Part shown: piece after piece, positions 3,042-30,295 of the stretch
Layout of the letters: every line of letters starts with the position of its first letter
Numbering within the stretch: the first letter of the stretch is position 1
Source of the DNA: Minisyncoccia bacterium
GTDB taxonomy: Bacteria > Patescibacteriota > Minisyncoccia > Phycocordibacterales > UBA2100
Assembly (NCBI GenBank): GCA_046594495.1
Contig: JBKJSQ010000057.1
Span: 1 to 30,295, forward strand
DNA length: 30,295 nt
Reading direction: 5' to 3'
Notes under the pieces: generated by a model
Seen by the model: the letters and a program-made list of their open reading frames with translations, nothing else
Databases searched by the model: none
Told to the model about the DNA's origin: nothing
Translations under genes and position numbers: made by a program

Positions 3042-3641
3042 ATGAATTACGAACCGAAACCTACGCGATTTAATATCCCGAAACTCGAAGGCATCTCGGA
3101 GAAATCCATCGAAGAGCACATCGGCCTATACGAGGGGTACGTGAAAAACTTTAATGCGATCGGGGCAAAGATCGAGGAGTACCTCAAGGATTCCGCGCAA
3201 CACTCCATCGCGCTATCCGAACTCACACGCCGACACTCGTTTGAATTCGGCGGAATGAGACTACACGAACTATACTTTTCTCAATTCGAGGGCGGAGCGG
3301 CGCCAGTTGTCGCAGATGGCCCGTTTGCTGCGGCCATAACCCGGGACTACGGCTCTGTGGAAAATTTGGTTAAGGAAGCAAAGCAAGTCGGTCTTATGCG
3401 AGGGCCTGGATGGTCGCTTCTCTATTGGGACGCTGTTGGCCAAACATTCCATCTGGGCTTTTCGGGCGAGCAACATCAGGGGCATTTTGTAACGCTCCCC
3501 GTTATCCTTGCGCTCGATGTGTGGGAGCACGCGTTCCTGCTCGACTACGGCGCCCAGGGCAAGGGAAAGTATATCGACGCGTTCTTCAAGAACCTCAATT
3601 GGGGCAGTGTTGAAAAGCGGTTTGCTGAAGCTACGAAATAG
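3042..3641 (+). CDS. sod: Fe/Mn superoxide dismutase
   Basis: Metal ligands in HIGLYEGYV, GMRLHELYF and LDVWEHAF; start at ATG 3042, 7 nt after TGcTATACT. Confidence 0.9.
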   Translation: MNYEPKPTRFNIPKLEGISEKSIEEHIGLYEGYVKNFNAIGAKIEEYLKDSAQHSIALSELTRRHSFEFGGMRLHELYFSQFEGGAAPVVADGPFAAAITRDYGSVENLVKEAKQVGLMRGPGWSLLYWDAVGQTFHLGFSGEQHQGHFVTLPVILALDVWEHAFLLDYGAQGKGKYIDAFFKNLNWGSVEKRFAEATK

Positions 3642-25373: not shown

Positions 25374-26522
25374 ATGAATACTGAAAGCAAAAAGGCTGCC
25401 CACTCATTTTTAAATGTGAATATAACCCGCGATTCTGAGCGCTGGGAAACGGAAATTCGCGCGGAAATTCCGGTCGAGGTGCTCACCAAGTACCGCGGAG
25501 TCGCACTCAAGGAGATGCAAAAGACCGCAAAGCTCGATGGCTTCCGTCCCGGCAAGGCACCCGAGGACCGAATTCTCGCAGTCTATGGGGAATCACAGGT
25601 ATTGCGCCGTGCAGTTGAGCACGCAATCGAGAATGAGCTCCCGCTCTTACTCGCATCTGAGAAGCTCCCTATTGTGGAAGCCCCACGAGTAACGACCGAC
25701 ACACCAACGCTCGATAAGCCGGTCACCTTTACCGCACGTGCCGCACTCGCTCCAGAAATTGCACTCGGTGACTACAAATCCGTTGCCAAGAAGCACACTG
25801 ATATCAAGGAAGATACGAGCGTCTCTGACGCTGAGCACACCGAGGCACTCACTCATTTGCGTCGCGAACGTGCGCGCATCGATCGCATCGAGTCTGGCAC
25901 AGAACCGCAAAAGGCAGCTGAGGAAACGAAGGCGCTTGCGGAAACCGACCTTCCAGAGCTCGACGACACGTTCGTGCAGACGCTCGGCTACGAGAACACT
26001 ACTGCGTTCACGACCGCACTTCGCAATAACATCCAAACCGAAAAAGAGATGCGCGCGAGCGAAAAGCGCCGCGCTGGTATCCTCGACGACATGGTGAAGG
26101 GCTCTAAGATATCCTACCCTGTTTCACTTCGCGCATTTGAACTCGACGAAATGGAGGCGCGCTTGAAGGACGACCTCTCGCGCATTGGCCAAACGATCGA
26201 GCAATACCTTGCAGAAACAAAGAAGACTCGTGAAGAGCTCCTTGCAAGCTGGAAGGATGCCGCAGATAAGCGCGCAAAAGTACGTCTTATTCTTTCAGAG
26301 ATTGCACGACAAGAAAATATAAATCCACCAGCTGCGGAGCTAGAACATGAACTCGAGCACGCGCGAGAGCACTATCCAAAAGCGGATCCCGAAAATCTCC
26401 GCGCACACATTTCGCACGCGATGCGTAACGAAATGACACTGCGCTTCCTCGAAGGAAATCCAGAGCCGGTCGGCCACACCGCTTCGAGTCACGGAGGGCA
26501 AGCCGCCCACGCTCACAAATAA
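25374..26522 (+). CDS. tig: Trigger factor lacking the FKBP/PPIase domain
   Basis: Ribosome-binding signature LDGFRPGKAP, then a short linker directly into LPELDD and the C-terminal domain; 382 aa. Confidence 0.9.
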   Translation: MNTESKKAAHSFLNVNITRDSERWETEIRAEIPVEVLTKYRGVALKEMQKTAKLDGFRPGKAPEDRILAVYGESQVLRRAVEHAIENELPLLLASEKLPIVEAPRVTTDTPTLDKPVTFTARAALAPEIALGDYKSVAKKHTDIKEDTSVSDAEHTEALTHLRRERARIDRIESGTEPQKAAEETKALAETDLPELDDTFVQTLGYENTTAFTTALRNNIQTEKEMRASEKRRAGILDDMVKGSKISYPVSLRAFELDEMEARLKDDLSRIGQTIEQYLAETKKTREELLASWKDAADKRAKVRLILSEIARQENINPPAAELEHELEHAREHYPKADPENLRAHISHAMRNEMTLRFLEGNPEPVGHTASSHGGQAAHAHK

Positions 26523-26549
26523 GAAAAGGCCCTCACGTACCATTCCTGA

Positions 26550-26673
26550 AATCCAAGGGTAACCCTTGGATTGAGCTCTAGGGTGACCTCACTTAGCGAG
26601 GGTTCCCCTCGCTATAACTCGACCAAAGTGCGCCGAAGGGCGATCTTTGCTGTTTCCAAGGGTAGTCCTTGGA
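26550..26673. repeat. Cluster of three REP-like palindromes (AGG-N5-CCT core)
   Basis: aatccaaggg-taa-cccttggatt (26550-26572), tagcgaggg-ttc-ccctcgcta (26594-26614), tccaaggg-tag-tccttgga (26655-26673). Confidence 0.65.
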
Positions 26674-26688
26674 GTAGTCACAAATAAC

Positions 26689-26714
26689 AAAACGGCACCT
26701 CGCGGTGCCGTTTT
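26689..26714. terminator. Bidirectional terminator
   Basis: aaaacggcacc-tcgc-ggtgccgtttt. Confidence 0.85.
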
Positions 26715-26736
26715 CGGTGTGCAGACACATGCGGTG

Positions 26737-27000
26737 TCAGCTTCGTTGTTTCGGCTCATAGTTTAAAAGCGCAAACGTAGTGCCCTGCCCTTTCGTTATT
26801 GCGATATGGGGGTCATCGCCATAGGCCGACGGATCACGAACGGTATGAGGCGACTCTTGTGGCGGAACGAAGGCTACCAGTCCCATATCGCCGGCAGCGA
26901 TGATGGTTGGAAGCATTTCGGCACCAAGATGAACCGGCTCTGCCGTGTCCAACAGTCGCACGAGTTCCGTGACTTGCCTGCTCGCAGTGTACGTACTCAT
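26737..27000 (-). CDS. Hypothetical protein
   Basis: TTGACA-17-CATAAT promoter (27056-27028), GGAGA SD before MSTYTAS, terminator downstream; alternative start at 27012. Confidence 0.6.
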   Translation of the reverse strand: MSTYTASRQVTELVRLLDTAEPVHLGAEMLPTIIAAGDMGLVAFVPPQESPHTVRDPSAYGDDPHIAITKGQGTTFALLNYEPKQRS

Positions 27001-27058
27001 ATCGTTCTCCATGAGTTTCCGTAAAGAATTATGTGGAGCCTGAGTACGCGTGTCAAGC

Positions 27059-27352
27059 CTAGTGCACTGTTTCCGGACCGGACTCGCCGTGCTTGGACAG
27101 CATCTCTTTATAAAAAAGTTCGATTACCTCATCGTCGCTCAACGACACCGACTCCCCGACATGCGCGTCGACTACTTTTCGCCAATCGGCTGCGTGCTCG
27201 CGAACCCAGTCCATCATAATCTCATTGCGCCCTGCGCTCACGCCCGGGTGTTCAATCTTAAACGCATGTTCGGCAACACGCGCCTGTATTTTACCGTGTT
27301 CAATAGGCAACTCTATTGGTGCATCAATACGATGCATGCGCTCCATATTCAT
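27059..27352 (-). CDS. Hypothetical protein
   Basis: ATG 7 nt after TATACT (leaderless pattern of the core genes); 97 aa. Confidence 0.6.
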   Translation of the reverse strand: MNMERMHRIDAPIELPIEHGKIQARVAEHAFKIEHPGVSAGRNEIMMDWVREHAADWRKVVDAHVGESVSLSDDEVIELFYKEMLSKHGESGPETVH

Positions 27353-27375
27353 GCGTTCAGTATACAAAATAAAAA

Positions 27376-27552
27376 CTACTCCAATTGATAATGGGAGTAG
27401 TTATAGTAGTGTCCGCCGCCATAATCAGAAGAGTCGTACGAGGCGCCGGTGGAGACAACCGACTGTTTCTTATACGCAACGCTGATGTTGAAGTCCCCGA
27501 CCATGTACAGGGCGAGCACAACTCCGACGAGGAACGAGATCACATGGGTCAT
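27376..27552 (-). CDS. Array cargo: 58-aa membrane-anchored peptide with a Tyr/Ser/Gly-rich tail
   Basis: AAGGAGG SD right after repeat R7; MTHVISFLVGVVLALYMVG...SDYGGGHYYNYSHYQLE. Confidence 0.6.
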   Translation of the reverse strand: MTHVISFLVGVVLALYMVGDFNISVAYKKQSVVSTGASYDSSDYGGGHYYNYSHYQLE

Positions 27553-27745
27553 AGGCACCTCCTTTATCAATTCGGGAACCATTCCTGAACTGAACAAAAG
27601 CCTCGATATTACGCGTCGAGGAGGCGCGTCCCTTGCGGGTGTGCTTTTTCCGGTTGCGCACAACGCGCAAACGGTAACGGTTGTCGGCAAGCGAACGCGC
27701 GGATTCGCTTCGGCGCTTCGGCGCGGGACCGGTGATCTGTTTCAT
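27470..27745 (-). CDS. Array cargo: ArfA-like basic protein; ORF reads through a terminator hairpin and repeat R7
   Basis: GAGGAGG SD after R6; SLADNRYRLRVVRNRKKHTRKGR resembles the ArfA LxDPxFRxRVxxxKK..xRK core but lacks GKGS. Confidence 0.45.
   Translation of the reverse strand: MKQITGPAPKRRSESARSLADNRYRLRVVRNRKKHTRKGRASSTRNIEAFVQFRNGSRIDKGGAYDPCDLVPRRSCARPVHGRGLQHQRCV
27567..27593 (-). repeat. Array hairpin repeat R7
   Basis: Minus strand tcagttcaggaa-tgg-ttcccgaattga. Confidence 0.8.
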
Positions 27746-27762
27746 ATAACATACCTCCTCTA

Positions 27763-27790
27763 TCAACCCGCGAACCATTTCGCGGACTGA
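27763..27790 (-). repeat. Array hairpin repeat R6
   Basis: Minus strand tcagtccgcgaa-atgg-ttcgcgggttga. Confidence 0.9.
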
Positions 27791-28218
27791 AAAGAATGGA
27801 CGATGACGCTCGTCCGGACGGATAGTAATCGGGATATCAGCCCACGCGTCAATACGCGCTGTCGACGACAAAGTCGCCGAATGAACGGCCGCTGTGGCCG
27901 CTCACATCTTCTACCGGGAGGCCCTCTATCTCCCGACAGTAGTACTTGCCGCTGCCCGGTCCGGAGGATTACTGTCCGCGCTCCAAGCTCCTTCGCTTGT
28001 CGCACGAGTGCAGCAACTTCCGGTTGCAGGCCGCGATCGCAGCAGCCGTCTTGGCAACAGTACGGCAGGCGCCGACCATTGCTGAAGCGGAGCCCGTACC
28101 GGCTCGACGAACGCTTCAGGATGTGGACGGTCTTCGCGACCACGATCGCCGTCGTGCGATCCGCAGTCAGAATGACTGCGCCGGCGGTCGAGGCGGTAGC
28201 GAAGTGAGTGTCGGTCAT
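27763..28218 (-). CDS. Array cargo: hypothetical protein with a CCQDGCC cysteine cluster; stop codon lies inside R6
   Basis: GGAGGG SD before MTDTHF; 151 aa; the C-terminal third crosses hairpin-rich sequence. Confidence 0.5.
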   Translation of the reverse strand: MTDTHFATASTAGAVILTADRTTAIVVAKTVHILKRSSSRYGLRFSNGRRLPYCCQDGCCDRGLQPEVAALVRQAKELGARTVILRTGQRQVLLSGDRGPPGRRCERPQRPFIRRLCRRQRVLTRGLISRLLSVRTSVIVHSFQSAKWFAG

Positions 28219-28262
28219 GTGGTGCCCTCCAAGAGCGATGCGCAGAATTGCGCAGAATTTTA

Positions 28263-28289
28263 TCAACCCGCGAATCATTCACGAGCTGA
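28263..28289 (-). repeat. Array hairpin repeat R5
   Basis: Minus strand tcagctcgtgaa-tga-ttcgcgggttga. Confidence 0.85.
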
Positions 28290-28323
28290 ATAAATAGGAC
28301 GAGCCGTGGCTCGTCCTGTTTGA

Positions 28324-28548
28324 TCATAAGCGGTCGAGTTCTCGCAAGGCGTCGTTGGTTTCATCTTGCCCGAAGACACGATTACTTTCTTCAACAGCCT
28401 CGCTCCACTCATCGCACTTATCATCGTATGTATAGCTCTCCGATATATACAACCAATCTTCGTAAGCCTTTTCTTGTTGTTCTTCTAAGACTGCGCGAAG
28501 AAAACTGATTGCACTATAGTTTCGCTCTACAAGGTACTTGATATCCAT
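28324..28548 (-). CDS. Array cargo: acidic 74-aa protein
   Basis: AGAGGA SD before MDIKYL; followed by a strong hairpin (28296-28317) and R5. Confidence 0.6.
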   Translation of the reverse strand: MDIKYLVERNYSAISFLRAVLEEQQEKAYEDWLYISESYTYDDKCDEWSEAVEESNRVFGQDETNDALRELDRL

Positions 28549-28620
28549 TTGTAATCCTCTGTTAGTTGCCTTCGCCACCATGATCGGATTACAAACGCGA
28601 GCAGCTCACTCCCTTTTCGA

Positions 28621-28648
28621 TCAACCCGCGAACGATTTCACGGACTGA
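28621..28648 (-). repeat. Array hairpin repeat R4
   Basis: Minus strand tcagtccgtgaa-atcg-ttcgcgggttga. Confidence 0.9.
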
Positions 28649-28698
28649 AAGGAATGGACGATGGCGCTCGTACGCACGGAGAATGCTTTCACATCCGC

Positions 28699-29289
28699 TC
28701 ACATCTCAGTGAGCAGTACTGTTGTAGGTGATATGAGTGTCGGCATCGACAACACCGGTGTCGACATACACCGCTGCTGCGAAGAGCAGTCCGCACGCCA
28801 CAGCAACACCGACGACGACACCTGCCGAAAAGAGCACAATTCTACGCATATATTTCTCCTTAAAACTCTATCAACCCGCGAACGATTTCGCGGACTGAAA
28901 AGAACGGGCGAATGGTGTTCACCCTTAGAAAGTACTTCCACGAAACCGGTGTGCCGAAACACCATGGTCTTTTTGGTAGACCCGTCCGGCTGCGACACTT
29001 CAGTGCTTTCACGTTTGGAAAACGCGTAGAGCACTTTGATGTTCGCCCGCACAAGCGCGACTTCGAGGGGCGCCATGAAATACGGTGCGCCACCGATCAT
29101 TGCAGCGCCGCAACCAGACTCCCGCGCAATGTCAGCGAGCTTAGCGGCGCGCTGAGCAAGCAGGCCGGTGCTCGGGAGCTCGTCAAACGTCAGATACATC
29201 TGGACGAGCGACTTCTTGTCGGTCTCAACCACGCCGACGGCGAGCTGATCCGCAGTCGCTTCGTGTTGAGTCAGATTCAAGATACGCAT
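28699..29289 (-). CDS. Array cargo: Csx20-like protein (about 120-aa core) with a read-through tail across R3
   Basis: ILNLTQHEATADQ...AMIGGAPYFM...LYAFSKRES..QPDGSTKKTMVFRHTGFVEV; GAGG SD after R2. Confidence 0.55.
   Translation of the reverse strand: MRILNLTQHEATADQLAVGVVETDKKSLVQMYLTFDELPSTGLLAQRAAKLADIARESGCGAAMIGGAPYFMAPLEVALVRANIKVLYAFSKRESTEVSQPDGSTKKTMVFRHTGFVEVLSKGEHHSPVLFSPRNRSRVDRVLRRNICVELCSFRQVSSSVLLWRADCSSQQRCMSTPVLSMPTLISPTTVLLTEM
28706..28849 (-). CDS. Array cargo: 47-aa single-TM peptide
   Basis: Manually translated MRRIVLFSAGVVVGVAVACGLLFAAAVYVDTGVVDADTHITYNSTAH; AAGGAGA SD right after R3. Confidence 0.6.
   Translation of the reverse strand: MRRIVLFSAGVVVGVAVACGLLFAAAVYVDTGVVDADTHITYNSTAH
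28871..28898 (-). repeat. Array hairpin repeat R3
   Basis: Minus strand tcagtccgcgaa-atcg-ttcgcgggttga. Confidence 0.9.
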
Positions 29290-29531
29290 GTGTGTATTCC
29301 TCGCTCTATCAATTCGCGAACCATTTCGCGGACTGAAGAAAGCGGGGAAGATTGGTCTTCCCCGGAATATTCGCTTGCCTCACGGCGGCGATCGGCTTTT
29401 GCACGATCGGCACGGAGGTTCTCAAGCTGGACGAAGAACTCACCCCGCGCATTGCGCTCACTGAGTACGCGCAGCGCTACGCTGTAGCCACTCTGCGCGA
29501 ACATAAGTGCGACGTGCTTGCGTGTCATCAT
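29277..29531 (-). CDS. Array cargo: hypothetical protein reading through R2
   Basis: GAGGG SD right after R1; no stop before the hairpin at 29343-29364. Confidence 0.5.
   Translation of the reverse strand: MMTRKHVALMFAQSGYSVALRVLSERNARGEFFVQLENLRADRAKADRRREASEYSGEDQSSPLSSVREMVRELIERGIHTCVS
29309..29336 (-). repeat. Array hairpin repeat R2
   Basis: Minus strand tcagtccgcgaa-atgg-ttcgcgaattga. Confidence 0.9.
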
Positions 29532-29547
29532 GTGGCATCCCTCATCT

Positions 29548-29575
29548 TCAATCCACGAACTATTTCATGGGCTGA
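29548..29575 (-). repeat. Array hairpin repeat R1
   Basis: Minus strand tcagcccatgaa-atag-ttcgtggattga. Confidence 0.85.
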
Positions 29576-29694
29576 AGAAAGGTGCGGAGTAAGGCTCCGC
29601 ACAACCTATGGTGATGTTCAGCATCTGGCCGTAATAAAACGGCAAGATTGAGAACTTCTGTTGCCAAGCGACACCACATCGCTCCGTTGCCATG

Positions 29695-29895
29695 TTAATG
29701 GAGACGGTATCCGTCGAGAGAACGCTCAAGAAACGCGAGCGCTTCGTCAGGATAACCGGACTTCTCCATGTACAAGGCGAATGCCAGGATGTCATCGTCT
29801 GACACGCTCCGACGGGGGCACTTCAGTGCAACAAACCCCCGAACGAAATCATGTGTTCCGATGACACGCCCGTCGATAGAAATAACCTGCCTCAT
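29695..29895 (-). CDS. First gene of the array region, hypothetical 66-aa protein
   Basis: GGAGGGG SD before MRQVISIDG. Confidence 0.55.
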   Translation of the reverse strand: MRQVISIDGRVIGTHDFVRGFVALKCPRRSVSDDDILAFALYMEKSGYPDEALAFLERSLDGYRLH

Positions 29896-29919
29896 GTAGT
29901 CCCCCTCCGTGAAGTTGAT

Positions 29920-30295
29920 GAAAGAACGCGAGTGCACTCATGTACACACGAAACGAAATCGCGAGAGCTGTTTGACTGATGATGCGGTCTAGAACCCGTA
30001 CCCACCTTTCAAACTTCGGGGCTGGACATCCCCATGGCGCTCTCTTCCACACTCACACCGTATCTCGCGCCGAGACACAATATGAGATTACGAAGAACGG
30101 CGTGCGCGGTAAGCATTTCGCTGACCGCCCTACCGTCCTTTTTTCTGCATCCACAGCCTTTCGGACCTGTGGAAACGAAAAGGTAGTCGTTGGCTACCCC
30201 TGACCCGGCAACGGCATGCGCCGCCCCGAGTAACCTCTTTGGAATCCGAAGATTCCTTCGCTAGCGGTAATCGCCCCAGAGTTAACCACCAAAAG
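29920..30295 (-). ncRNA. Highly structured non-coding region or long leader RNA, continuing beyond the window
   Basis: Several stems with UUCG/GAAA loops and G-U pairs that form only on the minus strand; no convincing ORF. Confidence 0.5.

What the first reader, a model, noticed from the sequence alone, without database searches (positions are those of the whole stretch)
27567..29601. Every repeat is preceded by a sequence-unrelated terminator-like hairpin, and several ORFs lack a stop before it
Seen: stems at 29583-29601, 29343-29364, 28906-28924, 28657-28672 (weak), 28296-28317, 27798-27815 and 27601-27621, each followed on the minus strand by a U-rich tract running into TTCAG. ORFs 29277-29531, 28699-29289, 27763-28218 and 27470-27745 have no stop before these stems. 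Inference: if the stems terminate or are cleaved, those genes yield non-stop mRNAs whose products depend on ribosome rescue. Alternatively the conserved hairpin is an antitermination signal, or cassette shuffling removed native stops.
Basis: partly seen in the sequence, partly recalled or inferred. Interest (0 to 1): 0.75.

Follow-up and report, generated by a model that had tools for sequence, protein, structure and literature searches.

The report
Double-hairpin gene junctions with stop-less genes
A small accessory operon of a Saccharibacteria (CPR) genome separates its genes with a conserved two-hairpin RNA junction, and three of its gene families, one of them a relative of the ribosome-rescue factor ArfA, regularly have no stop codon before that junction, so they may be translated from messages that end without a stop.

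Summary
All seven repeats are preceded, 5-6 nt upstream, by a different GC-rich hairpin (hp1). Four upstream ORFs have no stop before it.

The repeat is the core of a 12-bp covarying RNA hairpin (hp2: UCAG-stem-loop-stem-YUGA). G.U outnumbers A.C 127:16 on the gene strand.

The hp1-linker-hp2 unit is not private to this window. I found it in about 60 contigs of Saccharibacteria, Kaiserbacteria, Paceibacterota and other CPR lineages. It was in only 3 of 37 genomes of the genus and 1 of 151 of the phylum. It usually sits in arrays headed by a TrmB-like regulator and a long leader.

The four stop-less ORFs have different causes:
- **27763-28218** carries a 1-nt insertion. Intact homologues stop 35 nt before hp1.
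- **27470-27745** is a remote ArfA homologue. All 16 copies checked run into hp1, as in the known arfA/brfA design.
- **28699-29289** (MJ1673 family) and **29277-29531** lack the stop in 5/5 and 3/3 related arrays. Their tails differ in frame and length, so they are not conserved.

Best reading, about 45% confidence: hp1 defines mRNA 3' ends, so these cistrons are non-stop messages handled by ribosome rescue. No RNA data were available.

The parts
29582..29602 (-). hp1 of junction 1 (8-bp GC hairpin, then CUUUC)
29543..29576 (-). hp2 element 1 (TTCAG..TTGAAGATG), followed by SD and the ATG of g2
29343..29364 (-). hp1 of junction 2, inside ORF g2
29304..29337 (-). hp2 element 2
28906..28924 (-). 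hp1 of junction 3, inside ORF g3. The homologous hairpin in four other arrays differs by compensatory changes.
28866..28899 (-). hp2 element 3
28657..28672 (-). hp1 of junction 4 (weak, -5.3 kcal/mol)
28616..28649 (-). hp2 element 4
28296..28317 (-). hp1 of junction 5 (9-bp stem, then AUUUAUUCAG)
28258..28290 (-). hp2 element 5 (3-nt loop)
27798..27815 (-). hp1 of junction 6
27758..27791 (-). hp2 element 6 (the consensus copy)
27601..27621 (-). hp1 of junction 7 (CCUCGA..UCGAGG), inside the ArfA-like ORF. It is conserved in the family's copies whose junction sequence was read.
27562..27594 (-). hp2 element 7 (most diverged copy, several compensatory pairs)
29695..29895 (-). g1, 66 aa, first gene after the leader. 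It has a normal stop 95 nt before hp1. Homologues head most arrays.
29277..29531 (-). g2, with no stop before hp1. It reads through hp1 and hp2 and ends 10 nt inside g3. Homologues in L074 and L008 also lack a stop.
28699..29289 (-). g3, MJ1673 family (PF27247). The conserved domain ends at FVEV (about 28930), followed by an unconserved 76-codon tail through hp1, hp2 and all of g4.
28706..28849 (-). g4, 47-aa membrane peptide with a normal stop
28324..28548 (-). g5, 74 aa, with a stop 7 nt before hp1
27763..28218 (-). g6, frameshifted by an extra G at about 27945. Intact homologues (L008, L047) stop at the TGA that corresponds to window 27850-27852 (35 nt before hp1).
27470..27745 (-). g7, ArfA-like small basic protein. 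The conserved core is residues 1-45, and there is no stop before hp1 or hp2.
27376..27552 (-). g8, 58-aa membrane peptide after the last junction
26737..27367 (-). g9 and g10, distal genes without junctions. Homologues end the L008 array.
26689..26714 (-). Strong terminator (11-bp stem, long U tract) that closes the array and faces tig
29940..30295 (-). 3' part of the long conserved leader. Its 5' part, a sigma-70-like promoter (seen in L001) and the TrmB-like gene lie on contig C68.

Best explanation
The junction is a modular intercistronic RNA element of a horizontally spread accessory operon of CPR bacteria. The operon runs: TrmB-like regulator, promoter, long leader, g1, then cassettes.

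Each cassette ends with its own GC-rich, terminator-like hairpin (hp1). A U-rich 5-6-nt linker follows, then a conserved 12-bp RNA hairpin (hp2) whose 3' tail leads into the next gene's Shine-Dalgarno sequence.

I infer that mRNA 3' ends are made at hp1. This could happen by leaky intrinsic termination in the linker, or by endonucleolytic cleavage in the linker or hp2 followed by trimming back to hp1. I infer that hp2 caps and insulates the 5' end of the next cistron.

Cistrons with no stop before hp1 would then be translated as non-stop messages. These are the ArfA-like gene in every copy checked, and the MJ1673-like and g2-like genes in the related arrays (5/5 and 3/3). Their products would be tagged by tmRNA/SmpB, or released untagged by the array's own ArfA-like factor with RF2.

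Shown: the structure, its conservation, its RNA-strand bias, the family-specific absence of stops, and the ArfA relationship. Inferred: the 3' ends, the cleavage, and the rescue dependence.
For: - hp2 covaries: 94% of cells are paired and 6 of 7 pairs show compensatory changes. With the UCAG/YUGA base it has 573 Watson-Crick, 127 G.U and only 16 A.C pairs in 65 distinct copies. It therefore folds on the gene strand.
- hp1 is present at 93 elements with a fixed 5-6-nt linker. It is terminator-like in 5 of 7 window copies.
- hp1 travels with the upstream gene and keeps its stem by compensatory changes. The g3 hairpins are GGGTGAA/TTCGCCC, GGGTGAC/GTCGCCC and GGCGAC/GTCGCC. L035 and L044 show the same.
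- SD and ATG follow hp2 within 8-16 nt in most window copies, so hp2 must be in the transcript.
- The stop is absent before hp1 in all 16 ArfA-like genes, 5/5 MJ1673-like genes and 3/3 g2-like genes. Their tails differ in frame and length.
- The g7 profile finds only ArfA chains in the PDB (E 0.003-0.009). hhalign against E. coli ArfA gives 80% probability, E 1.3e-5.
- arfA and brfA are known to be expressed from mRNAs truncated at an internal hairpin or terminator (PMC8012679).
- SmpB, RF2 (SPF motif), RNase III and RNase Y are all encoded in the genome.
Against: - There are no transcript data, so no 3' end has been seen.
- Seven terminators in series would starve the distal genes unless they leak or are overridden.
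- The U tracts are short and interrupted.
- Most cassettes in other arrays have ordinary stops just before hp1, so the junction does not require non-stop translation.
- The Pfam and NCBIfam scans of three family members returned no ArfA family, so the homology is remote.
- No tmRNA gene was found in this 95.55%-complete assembly.
- Read-through products with junk tails would also fit the sequence.
Confidence: 0.45

Rival explanations
1. Polycistronic read-through with no functional meaning. The hairpins only stabilise or insulate a long operon transcript. Ribosomes translate through them, and stop-less genes simply carry arbitrary C-terminal tails until the next stop. That stop is often the UGA/UAG in hp2's YUGAU(A/U)GAG tail.
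For: - About 5 of 11 stop-less ORFs in four arrays end at the UGA inside hp2.
- The TTGATTGAG variant common in other lineages holds UGA in two frames, so hp2 could act as a catch-all stop before the next SD.
- g2 ends 10 nt past the start of g3, which would allow translational coupling.
Against: - Frames into hp2 differ between orthologous cassettes, and tails reach 46-76 codons, overlapping the next gene.
- A single point mutation would give a stop, yet none arose before hp1 in 5 diverged MJ1673 copies or in 16 ArfA-like copies.
- For ArfA relatives, the stop-less hairpin is a known functional design.
Confidence: 0.25
2. Processive antitermination. The long leader, or hp2 acting as a nut/put-like RNA site, modifies RNA polymerase so that it ignores the hp1 terminators. 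hp1 then stops only unmodified polymerase.
For: - A leader of 0.7-1.2 kb with a sigma-70-like promoter precedes every array whose head was seen.
- There are many terminator-like hairpins in series inside one operon.
- The linker (GCUUUA, CUCUUUA) loosely resembles boxA. This resemblance is my recollection and was not tested.
Against: - hp2 lies after each terminator, not before it, and a single site would suffice.
- The only arginine-rich protein present is better explained as ArfA-like.
- Rfam shows no antiterminator family.
- Single junctions occur between ordinary genes, and no leader was seen there.
Confidence: 0.12
3. A DNA-level cassette recombination site. hp1-hp2 is the 3' end of a mobile gene cassette, analogous to an integron attC folded as single-stranded DNA, with crossover at the 3' edge of hp2.
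For: - Cassette order differs between arrays (window g1-g2-g3...g7, against L008 g5-g6-x-g3-g7-g2).
- Homology between L035, L040 and L044 breaks exactly at the end of hp2, and a different small gene follows.
- hp2 variants travel with the upstream gene (L008 and L047 after g7 and g6).
- The hairpin base is conserved while the stem covaries, as in attC.
Against: - No integrase lies next to any array. The nearest tyrosine recombinase in the L005 genome is about 14 kb away, and nothing integrase-like is in the leader even with stops read through.
- The core does not fit RYYYAAC/GTTRRRY, and hp2 is 28-30 nt against 57-141 for attC.
- 34-60 nt of identity plus natural transformation could explain the exchange by homologous recombination. 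ComEC and type IV pilus genes are in the window.
Confidence: 0.1
4. Terminator-promoter units, or a palindromic operator. hp2 DNA is a promoter (TGnTAGAGT as an extended -10) or the binding site of the neighbouring TrmB-like regulator, so each cassette is its own transcription unit.
For: - A TrmB-like gene lies within 4 kb of almost every array and of about a third of single junctions.
- TTGATAGAGT and TTGATAGTGT resemble TGnTAnnnT. In low-GC lineages the ATG is 20-35 nt downstream.
Against: - G.U outnumbers A.C 8:1, which a double-stranded site would not show.
- The base at the -7 position is T in only about a third of copies.
- In the window the SD overlaps the motif and the ATG is 8-16 nt away, so a start there would leave out the SD.
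- The sigma-70 scan finds no promoter at any junction.
Confidence: 0.06

Closest known systems
arfA (E. coli) and brfA (B. subtilis): rescue-factor genes expressed from non-stop mRNA
   Same: A small basic protein gene with a hairpin or terminator inside the ORF and no stop before it. The g7 profile matches ArfA over its functional core (L.D..[FY]R.RV..[KR]K..Y.RKG[KR]). RF2 and SmpB are present.
   Different: It is found in CPR bacteria rather than Proteobacteria or Bacilli. hp1 is a 6-7-bp hairpin, not the roughly 22-bp RNase III stem of E. coli arfA. The gene sits in a cassette array, and unrelated neighbours share the same stop-less design.
RNase III processing sites between the early genes of phage T7
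   Same: Conserved hairpin elements between successive cistrons of one operon. Cleavage leaves a protective 3' hairpin on the upstream message. This comparison is from my own knowledge.
   Different: Here there are two separate hairpins, only one of which is conserved. The 12-bp stem is short for RNase III. Cleavage has not been shown.
Integron gene-cassette arrays (attC)
   Same: Small genes in one orientation with no promoter found at their junctions, each followed by a folded repeat with a conserved stem base. Cassette content and order vary between genomes, and ORFs sometimes end inside the repeat.
   Different: There is no integrase and no R''/R' core. The repeat is much shorter, and the strand bias together with the SD position points to RNA. 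A second, cassette-specific hairpin precedes each repeat.
REP/BIME elements
   Same: An imperfect palindrome with a conserved 5' motif in intergenic regions after genes.
   Different: All seven copies are in one locus with none elsewhere in the genome. All share one orientation, and each sits at a gene start.

Membership tests
ArfA-type rescue factor gene (for 27470-27745) | Sequence relationship to ArfA | tested here: met
   A profile of 15 homologues against 177,635 PDB sequences gives ArfA chains as the top six hits, E 0.003-0.009. hhalign gives 80% probability, E 1.3e-5. BLASTP gives E 0.004. The match is remote: no ArfA family was returned by Pfam or NCBIfam.
ArfA-type rescue factor gene (for 27470-27745) | Hairpin or terminator inside the ORF with no in-frame stop before it | tested here: met
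   All 16 homologues run into hp1 (CCUCGA..UCGAGG) without a stop. ORF lengths range from 49 to 341 aa.
ArfA-type rescue factor gene (for 27470-27745) | Truncated mRNA, RF2-dependent release, repression by trans-translation | not testable with these tools
   No RNA runs were listed. SmpB and RF2 genes exist.
Intrinsic (Rho-independent) terminator (for hp1) | GC-rich stem-loop followed directly by a U tract | tested here: inconclusive
   5 of 7 pass a consensus scan. There is a mean of 4.6 U in the 10 nt after the stem, but the tracts are interrupted (CUUUCUUCAG and similar) and two stems are weak.
Intrinsic (Rho-independent) terminator (for hp1) | RNA 3' ends 7-9 nt after the stem | not testable with these tools
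   No transcript data.
Integron attC / cassette array | R'' RYYYAAC and R' GTTRRRY cores, 57-141 nt | tested here: not met
   The flanks are UCAG/YUGA. GTTGATA does not fit GTTRRRY. hp2 is 28-30 nt.
Integron attC / cassette array | Adjacent IntI-type integrase | tested here: not met
   In four of the five genomes searched (own, L026, L032, L028) PF00589 hits lie on contigs other than the array's. The L005 genome has one about 14 kb from the array. Nothing integrase-like is in the leader.
REP element | Many copies dispersed over the genome | tested here: not met
   All 7 copies are within 2 kb of C71, and none is on the other 163 contigs.
CRISPR array | Short (about 30-40 nt) spacers between repeats | tested here: not met
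   Repeats are 196-858 nt apart, and the stretches between them hold genes with SD and ATG.
Any Rfam family | Covariance-model match | tested here: not met
   There was no hit at gathering score in the window. Only chance-level hits (E 0.27 or higher) appeared in 26500-30295, and none in L001 or L008.

The most novel reading that the evidence does not exclude
The array is a self-contained, stop-codon-independent expression module. Its cistrons end at hairpin-defined mRNA 3' ends, and the array's own ArfA-like factor, working with RF2, releases the stop-less products (MJ1673-like, g2-like and itself). These products then accumulate only when trans-translation is saturated or blocked. This would be a horizontally mobile 'non-stop regulon' in CPR bacteria.
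Probability: 0.25. Interest if true: 0.85.

Novelty: new variant of a known kind. Interest (0 to 1): 0.7.

Why it matters
Non-stop expression is so far known as a private trick of the rescue-factor genes themselves (arfA, brfA). Here an ArfA relative, in a phylum where none has been described to my knowledge, sits in an operon where unrelated neighbours share the same stop-less, hairpin-ended design. That design has been kept across diverged arrays.

If the 3' ends are real, it would be the first case of cargo genes gated by the cell's ribosome-rescue capacity. It would also give a testable handle on gene regulation in Saccharibacteria, some of which can be cultured and genetically manipulated.

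Independently of mechanism, hp1-linker-hp2 is a new, well-supported RNA element (93 copies, strong covariation, not in Rfam). It marks the borders of exchangeable small-gene cassettes across several CPR classes.

Tried and rejected
**No result**
- RNA evidence: no RNA run was listed for the locus. The three DNA runs are soil metagenomes kept as contigs. They confirm the sequence, including the extra G in g6, and break at the repeats.
- Complex prediction of the ArfA-like protein with this genome's RF2 gave no verdict. This is not evidence either way.
- The Pfam and PHROG scans gave nothing significant for any of the ten small genes. The MJ1673 family of g3 came only from precomputed Pfam labels.
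- The ESM Atlas gave nothing for g1.
- A scan of viral contigs for the repeat gave 0 hits, so a phage origin is not supported.
- Literature searches found no description of the element.

**Considered and rejected on sequence**
- Hammerhead or other small ribozymes: the core order does not fit and there is no Rfam hit.
- K-turn or box C/D: the flanks do not fit.
- tRNA-like minihelix.
- -1 frameshift site: the spacer is too short.
- Pairing of the linker with the 3' tail: no consistent complementarity.
- Pairing of the tail with sequence upstream of hp1: seen in one copy only.

**Rejected by search**
- Five other genomes of the genus have no repeat array beside tig, so this is not a fixed feature of the lineage.
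Full report
**Setting.** The window is a whole contig (C71) of a 1.14-Mb, 164-contig assembly with 51% GC. It carries ComEC, RecJ, PGK, PilB/PilC, NusA and trigger factor. The nearest named relative that holds the same locus is an uncultured Candidatus Saccharibacteria MAG. Genomes of the genus are 0.6-1.1 Mb.

The finding lies in a minus-strand run of ten small genes (g1-g10, 29895 to 26737). This run sits between the contig end and tig. None of the ten genes gave a significant hit in my Pfam or PHROG scans.

**The observation.** Seven copies of a roughly 34-nt repeat (TTCAG-stem-loop-stem-TTGATAGAG) lie on the minus strand between 29576 and 27562. No copy lies anywhere else in the assembly.

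Five of the seven pass a terminator consensus scan, and two are weak.

In a set of 93 elements from many genomes, the 33 nt upstream fold at a mean of -11.7 kcal/mol. Random segments of the same loci give -5.4 and shuffles give -4.4. The distance from hp1 to TTCAG is 5-6 nt in 69 of 93. hp1 and the repeat are therefore one unit, not a chance neighbourhood.

**What the repeat is.**
- A covariance model built on the copies finds 48 copies in related loci. In the resulting alignment 94% of cells are paired, and 6 of 7 pairs show compensatory changes. No shuffle or slid control comes close.
- The flanks are part of the helix: UCAG pairs with the YUGA after the stem, giving 12 bp.
- In 65 distinct copies there are 573 Watson-Crick, 127 G.U and only 16 A.C pairs. 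This 8:1 bias means the hairpin (hp2) folds on the gene strand. RNA is therefore the simplest reading, and a double-stranded operator or promoter is unlikely.
- In the window the Shine-Dalgarno sequence follows or overlaps the 3' tail of hp2, and the ATG is 8-16 nt away in most copies. hp2 must therefore be inside the transcript.
- There is no Rfam match.

**Distribution.**
- The same composite was found in related Saccharibacteria contigs (L001/2, L005, L008). It consists of a variable hairpin, a YWUUA linker, UUCAG, a covarying stem and YUGAU(A/U)G(A/U)G.
- It was also found in 23 contigs of one-genome-per-species collections (Saccharibacteria, Kaiserbacteria, Paceibacterota, Moranbacteria, Parcubacteria, Minisyncoccia).
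- It was found in 37 metagenome contigs, with up to 13 model matches on one contig (L051).
- No viral contig has it.
- It is rare. It occurs in 3 of 37 genomes of the genus and in 1 of 151 genomes drawn across the phylum. Five genus members have no array beside tig.
- In L005 the island sits between clpP and tig. In this assembly contig C68 (RNase Y, TrmB-like gene, 5' leader) abuts the window's end.
- Arrays are headed by a TrmB-like gene, a sigma-70-like promoter (seen in L001) and a 0.7-1.2-kb untranslated leader. They nearly always contain a g1-like and a g7-like gene.

This pattern points to a horizontally spread accessory module.

**Cassette behaviour.** Gene order differs between arrays. 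The window has g1-g2-g3-g4-g5-g6-g7-g8. L008 has g5-g6-x-g3-g7-g2. L002 has g3-g7-g8.

hp1 stays with its upstream gene and keeps its stem through compensatory changes. The g3 hairpin does so in five arrays, and L035 and L044 show the same. hp2 variants also follow the upstream gene (L008 and L047).

Between L035, L040 and L044, homology ends exactly at the 3' edge of hp2, and a different small gene follows. No integrase is adjacent. Exchange by homologous recombination at the repeats is therefore enough to explain this, although a dedicated mechanism is not excluded.

**The four stop-less ORFs are not one phenomenon.**
- **g6 (27763-28218).** It has an extra G at about 27945 relative to L008 and L047. 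In their frame the gene ends ...DFVVDSAY-TGA, 35 nt before hp1. An independent contig set shows the same base. The frameshift therefore seems real, but it is a lesion, not a design.
- **g7 (27470-27745).** It belongs to a family of small arginine- and lysine-rich proteins with 155 clusters, all unnamed. The family profile hits only ArfA in the PDB and aligns with the functional core of E. coli ArfA. All 16 copies examined run into hp1 without a stop. This is exactly how arfA and brfA are built and regulated (PMC8012679). An earlier first-reader note (e1-5297413) had suggested this, and I tested it here.
- **g3 (28699-29289, MJ1673 family).** Homologues normally end 0-5 residues after FVE[AV]. 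The five copies in related arrays all lack a stop before hp1 and carry unrelated tails of 15, 19, 26, 46 and 76 codons in different frames. Two copies in another lineage end FVEAL-TAA.
- **g2 (29277-29531).** All 3 copies lack the stop, and two of them end at the UGA in hp2.

Across the larger set, most other cassettes stop just before hp1. Lack of a stop is therefore a stable property of particular gene families.

**Inference.** A stop before hp1 could arise by single substitutions. Even so, it is absent from three families over 50-80% protein divergence, while the tails drift freely. That pattern is expected if ribosomes seldom translate past hp1, meaning the message usually ends there.

It is also the established situation for ArfA relatives. 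The genome encodes SmpB, RF2, RNase III and RNase Y. I therefore favour hp1 as the 3'-end-defining hairpin and hp2 as the structured 5' edge of the next cistron. The stop-less cistrons would then depend on ribosome rescue.

None of the RNA steps is shown. Read-through with junk tails remains a serious rival (about 25%). Antitermination, DNA-level recombination and promoter or operator readings are less likely, for the reasons given under the rival explanations.

**Verdict.** The element and its arrays are undescribed. The regulatory logic is a new extension of the arfA/brfA principle, not a wholly new kind of system.

Noticed in passing
window 29940-30295 (-), continuing on contig C68:8636-8995: A long untranslated leader (0.7-1.2 kb in relatives) lies between a TrmB-like gene and g1. 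L001 and L008 share 408 nt of it at 90% identity. L001 has a TTGACA-16-TATACT promoter at about 3221-3253. There is no Rfam hit. Contigs C68 and C71 overlap by about 10 nt and are adjacent.
   Followed up: partly
window 27945 (-): A single extra G frameshifts g6. The same base is in an independent contig set of the likely source sample (X1 record 2).
   Followed up: yes
window 28699-29289 (-): g3 belongs to Pfam PF27247 (MJ1673 family), according to the precomputed labels of the protein collection. My Pfam scan returned nothing for it. Relatives occur in Microbulbifer and in a Caudoviricetes record.
   Followed up: partly
window 27028-27056 (-): A near-consensus sigma-70 promoter (TTGACA-17-CATAAT, 11/12) lies just upstream of g10. 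The last gene may therefore have its own promoter.
   Followed up: no
L035, L040 and L044 (Paceibacterota / Parcubacteria MAGs): Here a single junction sits between an ordinary upstream gene and a small gene that differs in each genome, before a conserved convergent gene. Homology stops exactly at the 3' end of hp2.
   Followed up: partly
proteins P0133, P0140, P0146 and others: Part of the g7/ArfA-like family carries the Pfam label DUF7230 (PF23876). Weak members come from Rhodospirillales and Hyphomicrobiales MAGs. DUF7230 may be an unrecognised ArfA-like family.
   Followed up: no
window 27655-29513: Contigs of the public runs break at the repeats (27655/27663, 28642/28670, 28941, 29273, 29513). 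Arrays of this kind are probably under-assembled in metagenomes.
   Followed up: no
L047 (labelled Paceibacterota) against the window and L008: The g6 and g7 cassettes and the leader are 78-90% identical in nucleotides between MAGs labelled as different CPR classes. This means either recent horizontal transfer or mislabelled bins.
   Followed up: no
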